DNA of 50,403 nucleotides from Shigella phage Sfin-1. The DNA lies in sequence record NC_047998.1. One strand, 5' to 3'. Position 1 is the first letter of the stretch; every line of letters starts with the position of its first letter. Shown in pieces: positions 4,457-35,913 of the stretch. The notes beneath the pieces were generated by a model that was given only the letters and a program-made list of their open reading frames with translations, did not search any database and was not told the DNA's origin. Made by a program: the position numbers and the translations under genes.

Positions 4457-6025
4457 TTACCGCTTAACCATCCCGGCGAGTCGCTTCATTCTCTCGATAG
4501 GATCATCAATGGTCAGCAATTCGATGTTCGCCGCATCCATGAAGTTATCGACGATATCATCATGCGGATGGGTGTCATCGTAAGTGAAGGCGCTATGTTC
4601 TGCGATGATTTCCGCAAGCATAGGGTGCTCTTCTGGAAGAACCACGCGCCCGGCCTTAATTACTGGCTGAGCATCCATAGCTCGGGTAACTTTATCTTTG
4701 TTACGCTGCAATGGTGTGATTGAGATCGGAGTCTTTTTCCTTAAGTTCTGAATCAAGCCCGTCCCGCTCGCCTTATCTTCCACGTAGATTTTGCGAAGCA
4801 CACCCATTGATTTATTGTGCCTCCATGCCTGATTCACGAAGGCGGTAAATTGTTTCTCCATATCAGGCGCTTCCCACTTGCCGCGAATGCCGTCGATAAA
4901 GTAAACCTTATCGTTTTTCTTACCCCATAAGCAAAACACCGTGTAGTCGTTTAGTTCACCTGTCTTCTGAGCGGTATCGGCAGTGATGAAACGGTAATCA
5001 TATTTGCCCGGATCTGGCTCGTTAGCGTCAAGACTGCTGCCGTAATAAGTCCACCATTCCGAGTTAAACACGGAGCCGCCAAGCGCGATCGGCTTCTGCT
5101 GGTACTGAGAATCAAAGGTGTACTGGTCCGCTTCGCGCAAAGCCAATAGGTCGTGAACACTCTCCTTGCTGGGCCAGAATGAATAATGCTTAACACCATC
5201 CAATTCTACATACTCAGACGACAAAACGTCGCGCTCGAAATAAGGCTGCAACCAGTCAGGAAGTGTCTTTCCGTATTCTTCAGTCACCAGTGCCGGGATC
5301 GAGATCTGGTCAAACTCAATACCCATACCTCCATTCATCATAAACCAAGTTGAATCCTGCGCGTGCAGTCGCTGCTGGATTGCGATAATCGGCGTCTCGT
5401 TGTGCATACGACGGGATCGTATGGTGTTCTTCAATAGCATGTGAGTACGCTCACGCTTAACCTTTGAGAACATATCGTCAGGCTTGTCTATATCGTCGAG
5501 CATTACCATCCCGGAGAATCCCGGCATCATATAGCCACCACGCGAACCTGTGATTCGACCTCCGGCTGCTGCGGATATTAGCTCGAACCAGACCTTGCCA
5601 TCTTCGTTAAGAACTTGCATCTCTTCATCTTTCGATGTGCCGAACTTACAGGGCCACAACTCTTGGAACTCTTTGCTGCTGATAATCTCACGAACTCGCT
5701 TACTGTTACGCTTTACAAGGCTATCTGCAAATGAAACGTTAAGGTTTCGTACCTTCTTGCACTTGAGCATTGCGTAAACAGGAAGGTGAATTGAGAACAC
5801 CTCGGTTTTACCCGAACCTGGCGTGACGTTAAAGATAGTGTTCCCGCGTCGACCTGCAATTATTTCCTCAACTTCGTGACATAAATAAAGGTGATGCCAG
5901 TTAGGCTGGAACTGCTGAGCCTGCATAAGCTGGAACCAGATCCTAATCATCTTTTCGAAATTCGCCTCACTCATTTTCTTGATCGCTAACTTCTGAGTTG
6001 CGTCGAGGTCTTCCCATTGAATCAT
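4457..6025 (-). CDS. Terminase large subunit
   Basis: Walker A-like VTPGSGKT, Walker B-like MVMLDD, C-terminal nuclease-like region; AAGGAG RBS. Confidence 0.9.
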   Translation of the reverse strand: MIQWEDLDATQKLAIKKMSEANFEKMIRIWFQLMQAQQFQPNWHHLYLCHEVEEIIAGRRGNTIFNVTPGSGKTEVFSIHLPVYAMLKCKKVRNLNVSFADSLVKRNSKRVREIISSKEFQELWPCKFGTSKDEEMQVLNEDGKVWFELISAAAGGRITGSRGGYMMPGFSGMVMLDDIDKPDDMFSKVKRERTHMLLKNTIRSRRMHNETPIIAIQQRLHAQDSTWFMMNGGMGIEFDQISIPALVTEEYGKTLPDWLQPYFERDVLSSEYVELDGVKHYSFWPSKESVHDLLALREADQYTFDSQYQQKPIALGGSVFNSEWWTYYGSSLDANEPDPGKYDYRFITADTAQKTGELNDYTVFCLWGKKNDKVYFIDGIRGKWEAPDMEKQFTAFVNQAWRHNKSMGVLRKIYVEDKASGTGLIQNLRKKTPISITPLQRNKDKVTRAMDAQPVIKAGRVVLPEEHPMLAEIIAEHSAFTYDDTHPHDDIVDNFMDAANIELLTIDDPIERMKRLAGMVKR

Positions 6026-8409: not shown

Positions 8410-8453
8410 ACTATATCAAATCACCCCACCGACGTTTTAGCAATTCGTGCTAT
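8410..8453 (-). promoter_or_regulatory. Early promoter cassette (TAGCACGAATTGCTAAAAC dyad, 22-bp spacer, TGnTATAGT)
   Basis: Dyad TAGCA-N5-TGCTA; 22 bp to extended -10 TATAGT; the TAG of the dyad is the stop codon of the upstream kinase gene. Confidence 0.55.
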
Positions 8454-9703: not shown

Positions 9704-9747
9704 ATTCTATCAAATGCCCTTGAGCAAGTTTTAGCAATTAGTGCTAT
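9704..9747 (-). promoter_or_regulatory. Early promoter cassette (dyad plus 22 bp plus TAGAAT)
   Basis: TAGCACTAATTGCTAAAAC followed after 22 bp by TGaTAGAAT; a GGGCATT/AATGCCC hairpin overlaps the -10. Confidence 0.5.
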
Positions 9748-14389: not shown

Positions 14390-14433
14390 ACTATAGCAAG
14401 ATACCCCGATCCGGTTTTAACAATTCGTGCTAT
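14390..14433 (-). promoter_or_regulatory. Early promoter cassette (TAGCACGAATTGTTAAAAC plus 22 bp plus TGcTATAGT)
   Basis: Same architecture; GGGGTA/TACCCC hairpin. Confidence 0.55.
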
Positions 14434-15703: not shown

Positions 15704-16145
15704 AATCCATCCTCATTTGTCTATTGATGTGTAAATGGTGTCATAACATGTCAACAATTGCCATTGTGACAGCGCAATGCAGGGCTGTCAATGCCTGCGA
15801 GCCAATTTTAAGCTGTGTAACATTTGTCTAGCTGTCTAGAGTCCCCATAGAAATATATGACTCTCAAAAAAGTACTGTATATATAAACATGCAGATAGAA
15901 ATATGCCAACAGTACGCTAGACAATGTAAGACGGCTATACACAACTATTACAATATAATTATCTATATATATAAATATAAAAAAAACACTATATATATTA
16001 TATATATACATATATCCATATGTCTATTGTGGGGCGTCACAGTGCGTAATTTTGTCACAAGTGCGATTCTAGACAAATATTACAGTCGTGACAAGTTAAG
16101 GTGTAATCGATAGCACGTTTTGCTAAAAATGGAGATGACCACCAG
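15704..16145. promoter_or_regulatory. Divergent early control region A: TA-rich tract and six TGTCTA half-sites (four direct, two inverted)
   Basis: Non-coding strand-switch region; TGTCTA at 15719, 15825, 15834, 16021 and TAGACA at 15918, 16067; about 60-bp (TA)n-like tract at 15955..16015; degenerate promoter dyad at 16111..16128. Confidence 0.55.
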
Positions 16146-16390
16146 GTGAACCGGGTAACACTAAATCCTCCCTCTCACAATCATTGCATTCCAAGCAACA
16201 ATCACATCAACAGTTGCACACCATGCAACAATCACATTTCATCATTCGAGATCAATTGGGATCGCAATTATTCCAGATATTCCATTGCTGGTGGAATAAT
16301 GAGCAACTATTGGAATAGCATTTTTTGCAACATATCAGCCCTGCCGATAGGGTATGATTCATCTCATCAACCAATCATAGGAATCACGCA

Positions 16391-17778: not shown

Positions 17779-17940
17779 ATGATCGTATATTGCGTAGTGG
17801 GAACTATCTACTATGAAGGTGATGAACTGATCGAGATATGCTCAACTGAAAGAAAGGCTAACGAGATCAAGAATCTTACTGAGAATGACAGAACCAACTT
17901 CTTTGATGAGATCAAGATTGTTCAAAAAGAGGTTATCTAA
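17779..17940 (+). CDS. Hypothetical small protein (53 aa), below the ORF-track cutoff
   Basis: AGAGGA RBS; exactly fills the gap between two promoter cassettes. Confidence 0.4.
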   Translation: MIVYCVVGTIYYEGDELIEICSTERKANEIKNLTENDRTNFFDEIKIVQKEVI

Positions 17941-17983
17941 TAGCACTTTTTGTTAAACGCGCATCAGGGATGGCTGGTATAGT
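17941..17983 (+). promoter_or_regulatory. Early promoter cassette (TAGCACTTTTTGTTAAACG plus 22 bp plus TATAGT)
   Basis: Spacing verified; GGATGGCT...TCATCC hairpin. Confidence 0.55.
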
Positions 17984-18949: not shown

Positions 18950-19055
18950 CAGCGTAAAAAATGTTCGCGTTTACGATAGCCATCAAAAAGCAATGATGCA
19001 GAAAGTAGTTCTAGGTGGCACAATCAAAGAGTGCAAAGTAATTTCTGAGTACTGA
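18912..19055 (+). CDS. Possible small protein (47 aa)
   Basis: ORF ends 1 nt before the next promoter dyad; weak RBS; overlaps the upstream gene 3' end. Confidence 0.25.
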   Translation: MIYIHTFYTGKFNSVKNVRVYDSHQKAMMQKVVLGGTIKECKVISEY

Positions 19056-19099
19056 TAGCACGAATAGCTAAAGACGACAAACCGGGAGTAAGGTATATT
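19056..19099 (+). promoter_or_regulatory. Early promoter cassette (TAGCACGAATAGCTAAAGA, about 23 bp, TATATT)
   Basis: GGGAGTAA/TTACTCCC hairpin around the -10. Confidence 0.45.
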
Positions 19100-19650: not shown

Positions 19651-20067
19651 ATGAAATCAATCAAACTGAAATGTACTTACGCCGATAAAATCACAGGATT
19701 TGAAGTTAACAACCTATACAAAGGTCGAGAGCGTTTCGATGGCACTCGCGAAGTAAAATTAAAATGCGGGAAGTATTTAAAACTTGAAAAGCATGATGAA
19801 TTACAGATTCACGGATCTGATGAAATCTTCTTCGCGAAGTTCACTGAGTTGAAAACAAAGACGCTCAAGTGCACCGGGCTTGACCATCGCAACCCAATGA
19901 AAAAATCATTCAAAGTTGGCAAGCGTTACCAGGTTGAAAGCGGTCGCGCTCTCGGTGGCGTAGCTGGTTACATCTTTGATGAAGATGGTTGTCGCTGGAC
20001 CTTATTTCGCGAAGAGGTTGGTTTTAGTATCGCAGACGGCACAACCTTTGAGGCCAAATACTTATAA
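19651..20067 (+). CDS. Hypothetical protein (138 aa) with two internal repeats related to the paralogous small-domain family
   Basis: IKLKCTYADKITGFEVNNLYKG and TLKCTGLDHRNPMKKSFKVGKRYQV. Confidence 0.45.
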   Translation: MKSIKLKCTYADKITGFEVNNLYKGRERFDGTREVKLKCGKYLKLEKHDELQIHGSDEIFFAKFTELKTKTLKCTGLDHRNPMKKSFKVGKRYQVESGRALGGVAGYIFDEDGCRWTLFREEVGFSIADGTTFEAKYL

Positions 20068-20072
20068 CCAAT

Positions 20073-20113
20073 AGCACTTTTTGCAAAACGCGTGTACCAT
20101 TGGCGGTGTATCA
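20073..20113 (+). promoter_or_regulatory. Early promoter cassette (TAGCACTTTTTGCAAAACG plus 22 bp plus TATCAT)
   Basis: GGTGTA...TACACC hairpin. Confidence 0.5.
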
Positions 20114-20143: not shown

Positions 20144-21712
20144 ATGTTTAATATTAAGCCAAAACTGAATTACCAACAGATTATTGAGATCGCCAATAGT
20201 ACTGGAGTTAATCCGGTGGCGATCGCAATTCGTGAAAACAGCTATGGTGACTCAGTTTCATTTTGGCAAGATCCGATCGATATCAATAGCGGCAACGATA
20301 AGTTCCCTCTGATTTCGTTAGGTGGCGATAACCTGGTATTCGAATATGCAAAAGCAAAGGCCGAGTCTGTACAGTTCCCTGTTTCGTCTGCGTACGCTCA
20401 TTTCATTGGGTGCATCTCAGCCGCGATGCTCGGGAAGTTTTGGGTGCAATATCACGGAGAAGAACAACCAACCGCTCTTTACATGGTAATCAGCCAGCCA
20501 CCGTCAACAGGTAAATCTGCGATTAACTCCGCAGCGATTACGCCTATGCGCGCAGAGATTCAGCGACTGAATGAAGAGCGAAAAAAGGAACGTATCCGTT
20601 TAACCAGTCAGCTACGCCAGGTCGAGAAGGAAATTAAAAACGACCCGAAGGGTAACACGACGGCAGCGCTATACGAGGACAAAGAAAAACTGGAAGAGAA
20701 AATCAAGAAGATGGCTGATATTGTTTTCGCGGTATCAGATCCTACACCAGAAGGTCTAGCGAAAGTAGCTGCTGTTCAAGGTCATTTCTCCGTAATCTCT
20801 GATGAGGCGACAGCAATCAATACATTGCTCGGCCTGACTTATGGTGGTTCAGACAAGAAATCAAATAGTGAGCTTATCCTTAAGGCGTGGGATAAAAACC
20901 ATATGGAGGTAGCGCGTTCCAACCAGGATAACAACTTGTCCCTTTGCCCGGTCGGTTCCATCTGCGTTATTGCGCAGGATGAAACAATCAAGGGTATCAT
21001 GGACGCAGGCCAACGAGGCATCGGCGTATCTGAGCGCTTCCTTCTTGTTCGTGAGGAACCTCTTTTAGGTACTCGTATCCTTTGCGATGAAAATGGTGAT
21101 GCACTGTATAAGGAAGTCGATCGAGGATTGGTGAGTAAATATTATCGACTCGTGCACAACATTATGAAGGAGGAAAACGTTGTTCTTTCTGTAAGTCGTA
21201 ATGCTATGCGTGAATTAAACCTTGCGCGTCAGGCGATGGAGCCGGATTTCGCCGCAGGTGGGAAATACTCTCACTCAATGCTACGCGGTCATCTCGGAAA
21301 GTTCGATAAGCACGCCTTGCGTATTGCTTCAGTTCTCCACACGATCAAGAATTGGGAGGGTGAATCACCGAACCGTTCCAACCGTGAGATTGACCTTGAA
21401 ACGATGCAGGAAGCAATCATGATCTTCAATGAGCTTTCCAGGACTTATCTGTCGTCTGCCAGCGCTGCCGGGTATGCTGGTGATGAGGCTGAATCTCGTA
21501 AGCTGATTGATGTTATCACTGAGATCGCAAAGAAGAATAAAGGGCGCGCTCCTATTCATAGCATCGTTGCAAAGTGCCGGAACGTTACTCCGTTCAACGG
21601 TCAACAGAAAGTATCTGAGAGAATAGATAGCCTGCTGATCACGCTCGAAGAGATGAACTACACTTGCCGCATTGATGATATTGTTTTCATCAATCCTCGA
21701 CTGATGGGTTAA
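20144..21712 (+). CDS. Large P-loop protein (putative replication-associated ATPase, DUF3987-like)
   Basis: Walker A-like QPPSTGKSA; start at the ATG with AAGGAG RBS; largest early gene. Confidence 0.4.
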   Translation: MFNIKPKLNYQQIIEIANSTGVNPVAIAIRENSYGDSVSFWQDPIDINSGNDKFPLISLGGDNLVFEYAKAKAESVQFPVSSAYAHFIGCISAAMLGKFWVQYHGEEQPTALYMVISQPPSTGKSAINSAAITPMRAEIQRLNEERKKERIRLTSQLRQVEKEIKNDPKGNTTAALYEDKEKLEEKIKKMADIVFAVSDPTPEGLAKVAAVQGHFSVISDEATAINTLLGLTYGGSDKKSNSELILKAWDKNHMEVARSNQDNNLSLCPVGSICVIAQDETIKGIMDAGQRGIGVSERFLLVREEPLLGTRILCDENGDALYKEVDRGLVSKYYRLVHNIMKEENVVLSVSRNAMRELNLARQAMEPDFAAGGKYSHSMLRGHLGKFDKHALRIASVLHTIKNWEGESPNRSNREIDLETMQEAIMIFNELSRTYLSSASAAGYAGDEAESRKLIDVITEIAKKNKGRAPIHSIVAKCRNVTPFNGQQKVSERIDSLLITLEEMNYTCRIDDIVFINPRLMG

Positions 21713-29467: not shown

Positions 29468-29496
29468 TTGAATCGTTGTATCGTTTACGATATAAT
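29468..29496 (+). promoter_or_regulatory. Sigma70-like promoter (TTGAAT, 17 bp, TATAAT) for the rightward HTH/primase genes
   Basis: Canonical hexamers and spacing directly upstream of the 29548 gene. Confidence 0.5.
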
Positions 29497-29534
29497 ACAC
29501 GGCATACAGTAAACGTTTTTAGCAAAAAGTGCTA
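29491..29534 (-). promoter_or_regulatory. Promoter cassette for the helicase operon (TAGCACTTTTTGCTAAAAA plus 22 bp plus TATTAT), divergent from the plus-strand promoter
   Basis: Dyad in minus orientation; its -10 overlaps the TATAAT of the plus-strand promoter. Confidence 0.45.
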
Positions 29535-29547
29535 CAGGAGAATTAAG

Positions 29548-30000
29548 ATGAATATGAAACGTATCGCAGAGTCTACTGGTGAAATCGATAAACGTCACAT
29601 CAATGGTAACAACGGAACACGACGCGGTAAAGATAAAAAGCCTCGCCAGCGCTGCGGATTTTATATCCATAAAGAAGAAACGCGCGCAGGACTGAGAGCG
29701 CGATTGGATGCTCTTATCGAATATTACGGTGGTCCTGCGGCCTGCGCAAAGGCTCTAAAAGTTAGCAATCAGACGGTGCAAGGCTGGAAAGATCGCAATA
29801 TGATTTCATGGCAAGGCGCTGAAGCAGCGCATCGTGCTTACCGCCGACAGGGTTGCAAAGGATTCCGGGCGGCATGGCTACGATTCGATCTGAAGTTTGA
29901 TGGGAACGGAAAGTGCCTTGAGAAGCGATGCAAAAACAAGAAGTTTATGCGAGTCGTGAAGAAGGAAGATATTGGAACGACGAATAGCATTTTTAGTTAA
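29548..30000 (+). CDS. Cro/YdaS-like helix-turn-helix DNA-binding protein
   Basis: GGPAACAKALKVSNQTVQGWK matches the YdaS/Cro-type HTH signature as I recall it; AGGAG RBS; basic C-terminal extension. Confidence 0.45.
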   Translation: MNMKRIAESTGEIDKRHINGNNGTRRGKDKKPRQRCGFYIHKEETRAGLRARLDALIEYYGGPAACAKALKVSNQTVQGWKDRNMISWQGAEAAHRAYRRQGCKGFRAAWLRFDLKFDGNGKCLEKRCKNKKFMRVVKKEDIGTTNSIFS

Positions 30001-34091: not shown

Positions 34092-35156
34092 TTACTTGTT
34101 TTGATATCGTACCCATGACGGCGTTTCAAGTTCGATCTCGCTTGCATCGCCAGCATATCCTGGCCAAACGTCCATCTCAGAGCAAGCCTTATAAGTGTGG
34201 ACTACGCTAATATACTGATTGCGACCTATTCTGATTTGCTCCATAGTCATGCGGTAAGCAAGGGCAATGTAAGGTTCCTTTTTCTCCTGTGCCAGCAATC
34301 GAACTACGATCGGAATATCTTCCGGGAAGTTTCCTTCAAATGCTCCAGCCTGAATTGCACGCCGCAATAGGTCATGCTGTAAGGACATTTTAAGATAATA
34401 CCCGTGATTGTATGCCAGTCTCGGGAACTCTAACGGGTTGGCGCTCATCGTGGTTTTGAAGTCAGTGATAATCAGAGCTTCAGGAAAAATCACGTCTTCA
34501 AATACCGGATCGCCATTCTCATCATAACCAGTCAGCACACGACCTGGAACATTCTCTTTGTAGTCCAAATGGTCAAGTCGAACCTTAACCTTGACGCCGG
34601 ATATCTCACCGAAAATTGAGATCTCACGCTGCGCAGTTTCGCTATTGATGCACGCTTCATGATCTGGGTTTTGCTCAAGAATGGCCCTCATCTTCATGCA
34701 GGCATCATATTTATCAGCGTCAACCAGTTGCTTTCCTTCAGCGCGCGCCTCAGCTTCAGCAATCAGTTCAATGAGATATTGAACATTGAGATCTTCACCG
34801 CAATCAACCATCATTTTGATGAGGTCAGGGTACTGCTTACCGGATGTACCTTTCAGGCCAAAAGATTTTAATTTTGCTGCCAGTGCCGTTTGCGAAGTAA
34901 TAAGATCTTTAAACTCTGACGGAGCAGGACAACGCGCATACGTTGCAGTAAACAGATCTCGACTCTCAAAGTTAGTGTGCGACTGAGTGCCGAACTCCAG
35001 CGCTTTAGTAGTCTCGTTCTTCTTGAATCGCCAGTTAGCCGGGCAAGTCTGATAAATTTCTGCAAGGCTCGAACCGCTTACATACTCTGCCGCCCAACCT
35101 TCGTTGCTATGATACTCGTCATTAGAAAGCTGACTTGATGTGAATACCTGGAACAT
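34092..35156 (-). CDS. Recombination exonuclease (PD-(D/E)xK, YqaJ / lambda-Exo-like)
   Basis: Position upstream of erf and ssb; candidate D...E.K nuclease core (ITDFKTT); GAGGGAG RBS. Confidence 0.5.
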   Translation of the reverse strand: MFQVFTSSQLSNDEYHSNEGWAAEYVSGSSLAEIYQTCPANWRFKKNETTKALEFGTQSHTNFESRDLFTATYARCPAPSEFKDLITSQTALAAKLKSFGLKGTSGKQYPDLIKMMVDCGEDLNVQYLIELIAEAEARAEGKQLVDADKYDACMKMRAILEQNPDHEACINSETAQREISIFGEISGVKVKVRLDHLDYKENVPGRVLTGYDENGDPVFEDVIFPEALIITDFKTTMSANPLEFPRLAYNHGYYLKMSLQHDLLRRAIQAGAFEGNFPEDIPIVVRLLAQEKKEPYIALAYRMTMEQIRIGRNQYISVVHTYKACSEMDVWPGYAGDASEIELETPSWVRYQNK

Positions 35157-35682
35157 TTCGTTTATCTCCCTCGTTTACGATGAATCCATTATAGCCATTA
35201 ACAGCGTTTAGTCAATCGAATACATGTAATTGGTGTGTAATTGCGTGTCTATATCGCTCAAGTTACAACCAGCGCCAATGTAATCAATTACTTAATCCTG
35301 TTTTTATGTTGTGTATATTGCGTAATACTTGTAACCGCTTTTTCTTAGAAATACAAAGATATCCATGAATAGAATCAAGATTGATTATATTTTGAACAAA
35401 TATGATAGAAATTTGACGAATCAATCAAATCACCTGTTACACGATATACAACTGTTACACAACAATAATTATATATATAAAGCTAAAATTAAATATTATC
35501 TATCTATATATATTATATAGAGTTTTTATCATATCCCCCTGCTGTCGGATGGGGTTGATTTTGTAACACCCGTTCCGGTTACAAAAATAGACACCTGTTA
35601 CACGAAAAAATTGTAATCGCGCTATTGCAATAAAAGTAAATGCGACATACAATGAAATCACACTAACGACGAGGACATACAA
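35157..35682. promoter_or_regulatory. Divergent control region B: TA-rich tract, repeated CTGTTACAC / GTTACA half-sites, TTGCAA-17-TACAAT promoter
   Basis: Strand-switch region; CTGTTACAC at 35433, 35451, 35595; GTTACA/TGTAAC core at least 7 times; shares a 16-bp TA-rich element (CTATATATATTATATA) with region A. Confidence 0.55.
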
Positions 35683-35913
35683 ATGAAAAAGTTAATCACC
35701 ATTATCGCTGCGGCATTCATCCTGACTGGTTGTGCTCAGAATCTTAAAAATGGCGACTGCGTTACTTACGCATACGGTTCTTGCATGATGCGATTCGTTG
35801 ATGGTCAAAAGGTTCCTGCTGGCGAAATTGATATGCGATTCAAAGGTCTGTCATCCGACGACGATCAGGGCAACTTTAGCGGCAAGGTGTCAATCAAAAC
35901 TAAAGAGTGGTAA
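35683..35913 (+). CDS. Small lipoprotein, candidate superinfection-exclusion protein (Llp/Cor-like)
   Basis: Signal peptide with lipobox LTGC; 76 aa; adjacent to the tail-tip and receptor-binding region. Confidence 0.5.
   Translation: MKKLITIIAAAFILTGCAQNLKNGDCVTYAYGSCMMRFVDGQKVPAGEIDMRFKGLSSDDDQGNFSGKVSIKTKEW

What the first reader, a model, noticed from the sequence alone, without database searches (positions are those of the whole stretch)
35157..35682. Divergent control region B with repeated CTGTTACAC / GTTACA sites and a TA-rich element shared with region A
This second strand-switch region lies between the recombination module (leftward) and the lipoprotein / receptor-binding genes (rightward). 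CACCTGTTACACGA occurs twice (35430 and 35592) plus ACTGTTACACA at 35451, with at least seven GTTACA/TGTAAC cores in total. A sigma70-like TTGCAA-17-TACAAT promoter faces the lipoprotein gene. A TA-rich tract contains a 16-bp element (CTATATATATTATATA) that is also present in region A. Two separate control regions with different half-sites but a shared TA element suggest two regulators acting on similar promoter cores.
Basis: seen in the sequence. Interest (0 to 1): 0.6.

Follow-up and report, generated by a model that had tools for sequence, protein, structure and literature searches.

The report
Candidate replication origin in T1-like phage
The 526-bp gap between the recE and cor genes of this T1-like phage is a strongly conserved non-coding module, an easily melted TA-rich centre flanked by short oriented repeats, that occurs twice per genome and is most likely one of the two still-unidentified replication origins of T1-type phages.

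Summary
The window is a complete Tunavirus (T1-like) genome, 100% identical to Shigella phage Sfin-6 over the region searched. All three exact CTGTTACAC copies and 7 of the 27 GTTACA copies in the genome lie in this spacer, and the 16-mer is shared exactly with region A. The spacer is non-coding and under purifying selection.

New findings. Regions A and B are paralogous ~400-bp modules. Nine of 13 hexamer sites match in position and orientation around the TA core. The two TA cores are the two least stable duplexes in the genome. This two-module layout recurs in T1, TLS and a Webervirus, each clade using its own repeat motif. It persists where no divergent gene exists and where the flanking promoter is of a different type. 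The phage encodes an MCM-like (DUF3987) helicase with a C-terminal winged helix. That is the protein class that self-loads at iteron/AT-rich/iteron origins in staphylococcal islands.

Best reading (about 0.5): B is an origin-type module lying between two plain sigma-70 promoters, PrecE and Pcor. Main rival (about 0.3): an early-transcription control hub. No experiment exists for either. The published literature searched says the T1/TLS origin has not been found.

The parts
34092..35156 (-). recE / exonuclease VIII gene, the first gene of the leftward recE-erf-ssb operon. Module B sits 5' of this gene in every lineage examined.
   Evidence: ORF list; Pfam DUF3799 PDDEXK; annotated as exonuclease VIII in relatives; 46 homologous loci
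35165..35215 (-). recE ribosome-binding site (GGGAGA, 35165-35170) and the PrecE promoter: -10 TATAAT at 35188-35193 and -35 TTGACT at 35210-35215, spacer 16, 11 of 12 consensus matches.
   Evidence: Promoter scan. The promoter hexamers and RBS core are invariant in 15 Tunavirus genomes (5 variable columns in 35157-35206). The same TTGACT-16-TATAAT is present in TLS. Annotated as a promoter in T1 and SA30RD.
35225..35335 (.). Outer left arm with hexamer sites: TGTAAT 35225 and 35236, TGTCTA 35246, GTTACA 35262, TGTAAT 35279 (variable), TGTAAC 35330. Most point leftward.
   Evidence: Site map; site conservation; positional match with region A at about -263 and -163
35284..35424 (-). 46-codon open frame (annotated as CPTT1_049 in T1), judged not to be a gene.
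   Evidence: The frame is open in 15 genomes, but variable columns by codon position are 9/14/12, against 15/4/114 in recE.
35431..35462 (+). Inner left iterons CACCTGTTACACGA (35431-35444) and CAACTGTTACACAA (35449-35462). Both point rightward and abut the TA core.
   Evidence: GTTACAC is invariant in 15 genomes. Region A has sites at equivalent positions (-63 and -34, against -56 and -38 here).
35460..35530 (.). TA-rich core, the putative DNA-unwinding element. It includes the 16-mer CTATATATATTATATA (35504-35519) and a near-palindrome (arms 35470-35490 and 35492-35512).
   Evidence: The 60-bp window 35465-35524 has dG -54.7 kcal/mol against a genome mean of -81.9 (sd 4.8), second only to the region-A core at -52.0. 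Only 4 of 70 columns vary. An equivalent core sits about 290-350 bp upstream of recE in all 46 related loci. Palindrome.
35536..35557 (.). Variable linker containing a weak terminator-like hairpin that is not conserved.
   Evidence: Terminator scan; substitutions are not compensatory.
35559..35586 (.). Inverted repeat TTTTGTAAC-N10-GTTACAAAA. The arms are conserved and the 10-bp spacer varies.
   Evidence: the repeat finder pair I21; Tunavirus alignment.
35588..35619 (+). Outer right arm: TAGACA (35588), CACCTGTTACACGA (35592-35605), TGTAATCG (35612-35619).
   Evidence: Region A has the same order (TAGACA-ATTACA-GTGACA...TGTAATCG) at the same distances from its core.
35625..35675 (+). Pcor promoter (-35 TTGCAA 35625-35630, -10 TACAAT 35648-35653, spacer 17) and the cor ribosome-binding site GAGGA (35671-35675).
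   Evidence: Promoter scan; nearly invariant in 15 genomes; annotated as a promoter in SA30RD.
35683..35913 (+). cor, a superinfection-exclusion lipoprotein gene.
   Evidence: PHROG 4281 and the Cor family phrog_1119; T1 annotation as Cor; PMC13164509.
15704..16145 (.). Region A, the paralogous module. Its TA core is at 15954-16013, flanked by TAGACA, GTGACA and ATTACA sites, one TGTTACAC, and a 21-nt repeat at 16110-16128.
20144..21712 (+). DUF3987 / MCM-like helicase gene with a C-terminal winged helix. It is the candidate initiator-helicase acting on modules A and B; that link is inferred.
   Evidence: Pfam DUF3987 E = 3e-42. AlphaFold2 model with pLDDT 88.9. The top 50 Foldseek PDB hits are all MCM subunits, best E = 5e-6. 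Literature: PMC4889955, PMC11724360.
21717..22124 (+). 135-aa protein encoded directly after the helicase gene. It has a winged-helix-like fold and is a candidate DNA-binding partner, on weak evidence.
   Evidence: AlphaFold2 pLDDT 84.6. Foldseek hits are all weak (E > 0.18) but many are winged-helix domains. The T1 record notes an HHpred hit to RipR.

Best explanation
Region B is one of two paralogous origin-type modules (A and B) found in every T1-like phage genome examined.

Anatomy. A TA-rich core of about 70 bp is the second easiest DNA in the genome to melt. It is flanked on each side by short hexamer repeats (GTTACA, ATTACA, TAGACA) in the orientation pattern < > > [core] < > > <. The whole module lies between two ordinary sigma-70 promoters: PrecE, which drives recE-erf-ssb, and Pcor, which drives the Cor exclusion lipoprotein.

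Proposed mechanism (inferred, not shown). A phage-encoded sequence-specific protein binds the hexamers on both sides of the core. The best candidate is the MCM-like DUF3987 helicase acting through its C-terminal winged helix, possibly with the small winged-helix protein encoded next to it. Binding melts the TA core and loads the helicase in both directions. The phage primase and host DNA polymerase III then start synthesis. The position immediately 5' of recE-erf-ssb suggests that B could also act as a fork barrier or switch point to recombination-dependent concatemer synthesis, by analogy with SPP1 oriR.

What is shown: the anatomy, its conservation, the A/B paralogy, the family-wide distribution, and the presence of an MCM-like helicase. 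What is inferred: protein binding, DNA melting and initiation of replication.
For: 1. The A and B cores are the two least stable 60-bp duplexes in the genome (dG -52.0 and -54.7; mean -81.9, sd 4.8; next -66). The same holds in T1 and TLS and in a Webervirus. Where contigs extend far enough, loci show a region-A core 3.4-5.6 kb upstream of the helicase gene.
2. Hexamer sites lie on both sides of the core in opposite orientations, and 9 of 13 match region A in position and orientation (random null 2.7, P = 1.5e-4). Sliding B against A gives 7 or more matches only at offsets -6 to +10.
3. There is strong purifying selection on non-coding DNA. The core varies at 4 of 70 columns and the sites at 9%, against 35% for the remaining arm positions and 57% for recE third codon positions.
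4. The repeat motif is clade-specific while the layout is constant. Tunavirus uses GTTACA(C) and TAGACA. One clade uses GATTACA. TLS-like phages use AACAAAAAGAACA and TGTTCAC. Webervirus uses ATCTTACC, with 8 of its 9 genomic copies in A or B. Within a genome the A and B cores resemble each other more (scores 40-60) than orthologous cores in other genera do (14-36).
5. The module is retained where B is not divergent: in TLS it lies between J and recE, and in Webervirus between primase and recE. It is also retained where the recE promoter is of the 21-mer type rather than sigma-70 consensus.
6. The phage has no DNA polymerase gene (PMC11447400) but encodes a primase and an MCM-like helicase with a C-terminal winged helix (PMC4889955; PMC11724360).
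7. Two distant marine DUF3987 phages show the same iteron / TA-core / iteron logic with other motifs.
8. There are precedents. SaPI Rep self-loading helicases bind 6-12 penta- or hexanucleotide iterons placed on both sides of an AT-rich centre in opposite directions (PMC9371898). SPP1 has two similar origins, each with repeats plus an AT-rich unwinding element (PMC6316719).
9. The sites do not overlap the -35, -10 or +1 positions of PrecE or Pcor; the nearest lie at about -43 to -60.
10. No small gene or known RNA is present.
Against: There is no experimental evidence of any kind: no origin mapping, binding or melting data.

The module sits between promoters, and the hexamers resemble -35 elements (TAGACA and GTGACA are 5/6 matches to TTGACA). 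Region A has a TAGACA-18-TATAAT promoter-like match (11/12) inside its core. An RNA polymerase or regulator-binding function is therefore a live alternative.

The winged-helix region of the helicase does not obviously co-vary with motif class. Webervirus and TLS have similar putative recognition helices but different repeats. The small neighbouring proteins do not track motif class either.

Unlike SaPI origins, the modules are not adjacent to the helicase gene; they lie about 4 kb and 13 kb away. Outside the TA core, the arms of A and B are not significantly alignable as sequence (z = 0.8 and 3.2). There is no GATC cluster and no perfect DnaA box. GC skew is uninformative because it follows gene orientation.
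Confidence: 0.5

Rival explanations
1. Early-transcription control hub. The hexamers are binding sites for a phage transcription factor, for example the Cro/C2-like HTH protein encoded at 29476-30000. This factor would activate or shut off the early promoters in A and B (PrecE, Pcor and the region-A promoters). The TA core would act as bent or upstream DNA, or as additional weak promoters.
For: The module lies between two conserved sigma-70 promoters. Sites occur at about -45 and -57 of both promoters, which are activator-type positions. TGTAATCG precedes the -35 region of both right-hand promoters. The hexamers resemble -35 elements, and region A has an 11/12 promoter match in its core. A and B hold most of the few plain sigma-70 promoters, whereas most other genes use the 21-mer promoter class. 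HTH proteins are encoded in the genome. Clade-specific operator/regulator pairs are common in phages (general knowledge).
Against: No site overlaps a core promoter or transcription start. Both arms are kept in TLS and Webervirus, where one side has no gene to regulate and the recE promoter type differs. The most conserved and most extreme feature, the TA core, is 110-270 bp from the promoters. A module of about 400 bp with 13 sites is large for an operator region.
Confidence: 0.3
2. Host-factor or structural element. The TA core and repeats would bind host nucleoid proteins (IHF, Fis, H-NS, DnaA) or act as a curved-DNA insulator or supercoiling-sensitive element, with no phage-specific binding protein involved.
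For: The tract is extremely AT-rich. TGTTACACA is one mismatch from the DnaA box consensus TTWTNCACA, and near-matches are mildly enriched, with 3 in B and 4 in A against about 0.8-0.9 expected per region. One IHF consensus lies at 35282-35294.
Against: The repeat motif differs completely between clades that all infect Enterobacteriaceae, whose host proteins have the same specificities. There is no perfect DnaA box and no GATC cluster. The IHF match lies in a variable stretch.
Confidence: 0.08
3. Packaging-related element. The module would be a terminase small-subunit recognition (pac-like) site, since arrays of repeated boxes around a central region also characterise pac sites.
For: The TLS record starts at its mapped pac site, about 215 bp from the region-A TA core. 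TLS has HindIII sites only at 5876 and 33334, and the pac-HindIII fragment is 5,882 bp (PMC11447400). Position 1 of the T1 record also falls in the region-A flank, at about window 16229.
Against: This applies to region A only. B is about 19.5 kb from it, and only one pac is reported for T1 and TLS (PMC11447400). The pac-proximal repeats (GCAACAATCA in T1-like phages, GATTTGA in TLS) lie outside the part shared by A and B.
Confidence: 0.04
4. Small RNA or small protein gene hidden in the spacer.
For: A 46-codon frame is open in all 15 Tunavirus genomes and is annotated in T1.
Against: The frame shows no codon-position bias in its substitutions, 9/14/12. The other two ORFs are interrupted in relatives. 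There is no Rfam match. The only hairpin is not conserved.
Confidence: 0.03

Closest known systems
SaPI / SCCmec origins served by self-loading AAA+ initiator-helicases (Rep, Cch)
   Same: An AT-rich centre with penta- or hexanucleotide iterons on both sides pointing in opposite directions, 6-12 per origin (PMC9371898). The element encodes an AAA+ helicase (of MCM-like SF6 type in the case of Rep2/Cch) with a C-terminal winged helix. Here there are 13 hexamer sites around a TA core, and the phage has an MCM-like DUF3987 helicase with a C-terminal winged helix.
   Different: SaPI origins lie immediately downstream of rep. Here the modules are about 4 kb and 13 kb from the helicase gene, occur twice per genome, span about 400 bp, and use several hexamer variants rather than one iteron. 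Binding by the helicase is untested, and its winged helix does not clearly co-vary with the motif.
Bacillus phage SPP1 oriL / oriR
   Same: SPP1 is a virulent pac-type siphovirus that relies on the host polymerase. It has two origins of similar organisation (repeats plus an AT-rich unwinding element). The second is proposed to stall forks and trigger a switch to recombination-dependent concatemer synthesis using an exonuclease, an annealing protein and SSB (PMC6316719, PMC3485210). Here module B sits directly 5' of recE-erf-ssb.
   Different: SPP1 uses a dedicated origin-binding protein (gp38), a loader and a DnaB-type helicase, and oriL lies inside gene 38. T1-like phages have an MCM-like helicase instead. 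I did not search for a gp38 homologue. The SPP1 repeats are direct repeats.
Archaeal oriC (ORB elements in inverted orientation flanking an unwinding element, loading MCM); comparison from general knowledge, not checked against a paper here
   Same: Inverted recognition elements flank an AT-rich unwinding element, and the helicase loaded is MCM-type.
   Different: Archaeal origins need Orc1/Cdc6 initiators, which are not evident in this phage. ORB elements are longer.
Drexlerviridae 21-nt intergenic repeat aaATAGCACnnnTTGnTAAAA (PMC11447400)
   Same: It is also a conserved, unexplained, intergenic element of T1-like phages, and one copy sits in the right arm of region A (16110-16128).
   Different: It is a different element. 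There are 27 copies throughout the genome, always in the direction of transcription, with a -10-like hexamer at a fixed 22-nt distance. None occurs in region B at up to 3 mismatches. Its sequence is conserved across the family, whereas the A/B hexamers are clade-specific.
Lambdoid operator regions (OL/OR with CI/Cro)
   Same: Clade-specific repeated sites lie in a divergent promoter region, and a Cro/C2-like HTH protein is encoded in the genome.
   Different: Lambdoid operators overlap the promoters and lie next to the regulator gene. Here the sites avoid the core promoters, the HTH gene is about 5 kb away, and the module survives loss of the divergent gene.

Membership tests
Iteron / AT-rich / iteron origin of a self-loading AAA+ initiator-helicase (SaPI/SCCmec type) | Central AT-rich, easily melted segment | tested here: met
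   35465-35524 has dG -54.7 against a genome mean of -81.9 (sd 4.8), ranking second in the genome. The feature is conserved in T1, TLS and Webervirus.
Iteron / AT-rich / iteron origin of a self-loading AAA+ initiator-helicase (SaPI/SCCmec type) | [quoted passage not shown] | tested here: met
   On the left there are > sites at -56 and -38 and < sites at -162 and beyond. On the right there is a < site at +70 and > sites at +86, +96 and +105, then a < site at +120. The sites are conserved.
Iteron / AT-rich / iteron origin of a self-loading AAA+ initiator-helicase (SaPI/SCCmec type) | The element encodes an AAA+ helicase with a C-terminal winged-helix domain | tested here: met
   DUF3987 E = 3e-42. 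The model has pLDDT 88.9 with a helix-strand pattern typical of a winged helix at residues 447-516. The top 50 PDB fold hits are MCM subunits.
Iteron / AT-rich / iteron origin of a self-loading AAA+ initiator-helicase (SaPI/SCCmec type) | Iteron sequence matched to (co-varying with) the initiator's DNA-binding domain | tested here: inconclusive
   Motifs are clade-specific. However, the putative recognition helix is similar in Webervirus and TLS even though their motifs differ.
Iteron / AT-rich / iteron origin of a self-loading AAA+ initiator-helicase (SaPI/SCCmec type) | Origin located immediately next to the initiator gene | tested here: not met
   The region-A core is about 4.1 kb upstream of the helicase gene, and region B is about 13.4 kb downstream of it.
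Iteron / AT-rich / iteron origin of a self-loading AAA+ initiator-helicase (SaPI/SCCmec type) | Specific binding and melting by the initiator, and origin-dependent replication | not testable with these tools
   This needs EMSA or footprinting, KMnO4 probing, marker-frequency analysis or plasmid origin assays.
SPP1-type dual origins | Two origin copies per genome with the same organisation | tested here: met
   The A and B site maps superimpose. Two cores per genome are found in four genera.
SPP1-type dual origins | A gp38-like origin-binding protein with a DnaB-type helicase and loader | not tested
   No dedicated search for gp38, gp39 or gp40 homologues was run. The helicases found are MCM-like and SF2.
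Operator region of a phage repressor/activator | Binding sites overlap or directly abut the -35, -10 or +1 positions of the regulated promoters | tested here: not met
   The nearest sites are at about -43 to -60 of PrecE and Pcor.
Operator region of a phage repressor/activator | Sites stay associated with the regulated promoters across relatives | tested here: not met
   TLS and Webervirus keep both arms without a divergent gene, and the Webervirus recE promoter is of the 21-mer type.
DnaA/oriC-type or lambda-type origin | Clustered consensus DnaA boxes and GATC sites, or tandem iterons inside the initiator gene | tested here: not met
   There is no perfect TTWTNCACA in A or B, and none of the 256 genomic GATC sites lies in A or B.
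Drexlerviridae 21-nt promoter-associated repeat | ATAGCACnnnTTGyTAAAA followed by a -10 hexamer 22 nt downstream | tested here: not met
   No match at up to 3 mismatches in 35157-35682. Pcor has normal 17-bp sigma-70 spacing.
Known RNA families | Match to an Rfam covariance model | tested here: not met
   The only hit was a chance-level match (E = 0.9, 18 bits against a gathering score of 95).

The most novel reading that the evidence does not exclude
Modules A and B are the long-sought replication origins of T1-type phages. On this reading they are a co-evolving pair of iteron / unwinding-element / iteron origins at which a phage-encoded MCM-like helicase loads itself. B, placed directly 5' of recE-erf-ssb, would also serve as the fork-arrest or switch point to recombination-dependent concatemer synthesis. 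This would be the first defined origin for an MCM-like (DUF3987) helicase in a virulent tailed phage. The same logic may extend to distant marine DUF3987 phages.
Probability: 0.3. Interest if true: 0.75.

Novelty: new member of a known kind. Interest (0 to 1): 0.6.

Why it matters
T1 is one of the classic T phages and a notorious laboratory and fermentation contaminant, yet its replication origin has never been located. Recent genome papers state that none was found in TLS or SU57 (PMC11447400, PMC7718038).

This work gives two precise, family-wide candidate loci, each with a core of about 70 bp and defined hexamers. It also gives a candidate initiator, the MCM-like DUF3987 helicase. That turns an open question into a small set of direct experiments.

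If confirmed, it would define how an MCM-like helicase is recruited in a bacterial virus. It would explain why the two largest non-coding regions are conserved more tightly than synonymous sites. It would also offer targets for engineering or disabling T1-like phages.

If the transcriptional reading is right instead, the same sites define the early regulon of these phages.

Tried and rejected
- Small genes in the spacer. Two ORFs are broken in relatives, and the 46-codon ORF shows no codon periodicity.
- Known RNA families. Rfam gave nothing, and there are no tRNAs.
- Terminator at 35537-35554. It is not conserved and shows no compensatory changes.
- DnaA/GATC oriC-type signature. It is absent.
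- IHF. There is one non-conserved consensus match.
- GC skew as an origin indicator. It is confounded by gene orientation.
- Identifying the binding protein by co-variation. The helicase winged helix, p135 and p138 do not track motif class cleanly. The Cro/C2-like regulator was not captured in most loci, so its co-variation could not be assessed.
- Sequence searches of p135, p138 and the helicase against the PDB. These were uninformative.
- Paralogy of p135 and p138. There is no detectable similarity.
- Reading the hexamers as -35 elements of real promoters. Inspecting the sequence downstream of the GTTACA sites at 35436, 35578 and 35597, I found no -10 partner at 17 bp. Only GTTACA at 35454 with TATAAA 16 bp downstream, and the region-A core, give promoter-like pairs.
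- Copies of module B outside phages. There are none in 5,426 E. coli genomes or in PLSDB plasmids, so no satellite or plasmid mimic was found.
- Literature on T1 origin mapping or transcriptomes. Nothing was found in the searchable library.
- Sequence alignment of the arms of A and B outside the core. It is not significant; the paralogy rests on the core and on the site topology.
Full report
**Identity and context.** The window is a complete Tunavirus (T1-like, Drexlerviridae) genome. Over the 3-kb and 526-bp queries it is 100% identical to Shigella phage Sfin-6 and about 92% identical to T1. The finding's coordinates, 35157-35682, are exactly the 526-bp spacer between recE/exonuclease VIII (34092-35156, minus strand) and the cor lipoprotein gene (35683-35913, plus strand). 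recE is followed by erf and an ssb-like gene. Few records annotate any CDS in the spacer; the exceptions include T1 and CLB_P3, which list small hypothetical ORFs.

**Checking the observation.**
- CACCTGTTACACGA is exact at 35431 and 35592, with a 2-mismatch copy at 35449.
- The three exact CTGTTACAC copies are the only ones in the genome.
- 7 of the 27 GTTACA/TGTAAC copies lie within 341 bp.
- TTGCAA-17-TACAAT faces cor, and a stronger TTGACT-16-TATAAT (11/12) faces recE.
- The 16-mer CTATATATATTATATA is exact at 35504 and 15989.
- A k-mer enrichment test over regions A and B against the rest of the genome gives P = 8e-9 for GTTACA, P = 1.5e-12 for TAGACA, and 4 versus 0 copies for TGTTACAC.

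**The spacer is non-coding and constrained.**
- Two of its three ORFs are interrupted in relatives. The 46-codon frame annotated in T1 is open in 15 Tunavirus genomes, but its substitutions show no codon periodicity (9/14/12, against 15/4/114 for recE).
- Rfam gives nothing, and the only hairpin is not conserved.
- In 15 Tunavirus genomes 21.7% of spacer columns vary, against 57% of recE third codon positions.
- The TA core varies at 4 of 70 columns. Hexamer-site positions vary at 9.0%, against 35.4% for the other arm positions (Fisher P = 2e-6). Nine of 13 hexamers are invariant.
- The T of CTGTTACAC is free to vary, so the selected core is GTTACAC. The inverted repeat TTTTGTAAC-N10-GTTACAAAA keeps its arms while its spacer varies.

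**Regions A and B are copies of one module.**
- The shared element is much longer than 16 bp. MAFFT aligns about 80 bp around the cores. The A-versus-B local alignment score is 60, against 26.9 ± 4.6 for compartment-shuffled controls.
- When GTTACA, ATTACA, GTGACA and TAGACA sites are plotted relative to the centre of each TA core, the two maps superimpose. Sites sit at about -163 (<), -60 (>), -36 (>), then the core, then +71 (<), +88 (>), +100 (>) and +120 (<) in both regions.
- Nine of 13 sites match in position (±8 bp) and orientation. Random placement gives 2.7 (P = 1.5e-4). Sliding B against A gives 7 or more matches only at offsets -6 to +10.
- Outside the core the arms are not significantly alignable as sequence. 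The paralogy therefore rests on the core and on the site topology.
- A and B also share site types: TGTTACAC (3 in B, 1 in A, none elsewhere) and TAGACA.

**The TA core is the outstanding physical feature.** With nearest-neighbour energies in 60-bp windows, the A core (-52.0 kcal/mol) and the B core (-54.7) are the two least stable duplexes in the genome. The mean is -81.9 (sd 4.8) and the next window is -66. The B core lies about 110-160 bp from Pcor and about 270 bp from PrecE, so it is not a promoter core.

**Family-wide comparison.**
- In 46 IMG/VR loci with recE homologues (down to 42% identity), an A/T run of 10-24 bp lies about 290-350 bp upstream of recE in nearly all of them.
- The flanking repeat is clade-specific. 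Tunavirus uses GTTACA(C). A sister clade uses GATTACA(C). TLS-like phages use AACAAAAAGAACA and TGTTCAC. ESCO41 uses AGTTACAT and GCGTATATC.
- In T1, TLS and Klebsiella Webervirus 'Call', the two least stable windows of the whole genome are again region A and the spacer 5' of recE. In Webervirus, 8 of the 9 genomic copies of ATCTTACC/GGTAAGAT lie in those two regions.
- Where the contig extends far enough, a region-A core of -50 to -64 kcal/mol lies 3.4-5.6 kb upstream of the helicase gene.
- Within a genome, the A and B cores resemble each other more (scores 40-60) than orthologous cores in other genera do (14-36). This indicates concerted evolution.
- In TLS, module B lies between J and recE. 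In Webervirus it lies between primase and recE. In both cases the genes are co-oriented, and the Webervirus recE promoter is of the 21-mer class rather than sigma-70 consensus. The module is therefore independent of strand switching, of cor and of promoter type, but it always sits 5' of recE.

**Candidate trans-acting machinery.**
- The phage has no DNA polymerase gene (PMC11447400).
- It encodes a primase, an SF2 helicase and a DUF3987 protein (Pfam E = 3e-42). The AlphaFold2 model of the DUF3987 protein (pLDDT 88.9) matches MCM subunits in all of the top 50 PDB hits (best E = 5e-6) and ends in a winged helix.
- DUF3987 proteins are described as SF6, MCM-like replicative helicases with a C-terminal wHTH (PMC4889955), and one has been shown to be a helicase (PMC11724360).
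- The 135-aa protein encoded just downstream has a winged-helix-like fold, but only through weak fold hits.
- A Cro/C2-like HTH protein is encoded between the SF2 helicase and the primase.
- I could not assign the hexamers to a protein by co-variation.
- Two distant marine phages with DUF3987 helicases at 35-36% identity also have their least stable TA tract flanked by clade-specific repeats. In one, GGGGCTA on one side faces TAGCCCC on the other in opposite orientation.

**Interpretation.** The architecture combines a short, oriented hexamer array on both sides of an easily melted AT-rich centre, clade-specific motifs, and an element-encoded AAA+ helicase with a winged helix. That is the architecture of origins served by self-loading initiator-helicases in staphylococcal islands (PMC9371898). 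Two similar origins per genome, one associated with the recombination machinery, is the arrangement in phage SPP1 (PMC6316719, PMC3485210). The origin of T1-like phages is explicitly reported as not found (PMC11447400, PMC7718038). I therefore rate an origin-type function as the best explanation (about 0.5), with PrecE and Pcor as ordinary early promoters on its flanks.

**Rivals.** The main rival (about 0.3) is a transcription-factor hub for the early promoters.
- In its favour: the promoter context; sites at activator-type positions; hexamers that resemble -35 elements; and an 11/12 promoter match in the region-A core.
- Against it: no site overlaps a core promoter, and the module persists where there is nothing to regulate on one side.

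Host-factor, pac-like and hidden-gene readings are weak. None of the mechanistic steps (binding, melting, initiation) has been shown. They need the experiments listed under next steps.

**Novelty.** I found no description of these paired modules. The TLS reannotation reports only the 21-nt repeats and says there are no origin-like repeats elsewhere (PMC11447400). The kind of element, an iteron/unwinding-element origin or a control region, is known. This is a new member of that kind, and it has practical value because it makes the T1 origin question testable.

Noticed in passing
window, 27 sites, e.g. 8435-8453(-), 9729-9747(-), 14415-14433(-), 17940-17958(+), 19055-19073(+): The unexplained Drexlerviridae 21-nt repeat ATAGCACnnnTTGyTAAAA gives 27 hits against 2.1 expected. 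It behaves as a fixed-geometry promoter class. 21 of 27 copies are followed by a -10-like hexamer, and in 19 the hexamer is exactly 22 nt after TTGnTA. Ten have a TGn extension. In 11 the -10 sits in the loop of a perfect inverted repeat of at least 5 bp, against 1.9% at random positions. The 22-nt gap is too long for TTGnTA to act as a normal -35, which suggests a phage-specific activator or an unusual DNA structure.
   Followed up: partly
window about 16150-16245; L054 (TLS) 1-60; L053 (T1) 1-80: The TLS record begins at its mapped pac site. HindIII sites occur only at 5876 and 33334, and the pac-HindIII fragment is 5,882 bp. The record starts AGATTTTG..., about 215 bp from the region-A TA core. 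Position 1 of the T1 record maps to window about 16229, inside GCAACAATCACAT repeats that flank region A. Region A therefore appears to adjoin the packaging start and physical genome end.
   Followed up: partly
window 35683-35913 (cor): Among 15 Tunavirus genomes, cor varies in 58% of its columns, and the variation falls at all three codon positions (39/36/58). It starts at about 35735, while the signal-peptide region is conserved. This points to allelic replacement or diversifying selection of the exclusion lipoprotein, directly next to a highly conserved promoter.
   Followed up: no
window 20144-21712: The protein annotated in T1 as a 'putative ATPase' is structurally an MCM-like helicase (pLDDT 88.9; all of the top 50 PDB fold hits are MCM2-7 or archaeal MCM) with a C-terminal winged helix. 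Its first roughly 80 residues are the least conserved part across the family. The ORF caller's TTG start at 20081 is probably wrong, because homologues begin at the ATG at 20144.
   Followed up: yes
window 19651-20067 (138-aa protein): Only the C-terminal half (residues about 64-137) is conserved in TLS-like clades. The N-terminal roughly 60 residues are replaced there, while Tunavirus and Webervirus share the full length. This domain swap has unknown meaning and occurs in a gene directly upstream of the MCM-like helicase gene.
   Followed up: partly
L136 2959-3560; L137 1-504: Two marine metagenomic phages have DUF3987 helicases at 35-36% identity. In each, the least stable TA tract (which again contains a TAATAATAA run in L136) is flanked by private repeats. 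In L136 these are four copies of GGGCGCTTTT plus ACGCCCA. In L137 they are rightward GGGGCTA copies facing leftward TAGCCCC copies. This suggests the module type is linked to this helicase family beyond Drexlerviridae.
   Followed up: partly
window 15997-16026 (-): Inside the region-A TA core there is a TAGACA-18-TATAAT match (11 of 12) on the minus strand. Region B has the TATAAT but no -35 partner. This may be a core promoter that could prime or activate the module.
   Followed up: no
window 15704-16145 and 35157-35682: Neither large spacer contains a GATC site, although the genome has 256 (about 2.3 and 2.7 expected per spacer by length alone) and the phage encodes a Dam-type methylase. The deficit is only mildly significant and is partly explained by AT-richness.
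   Followed up: no
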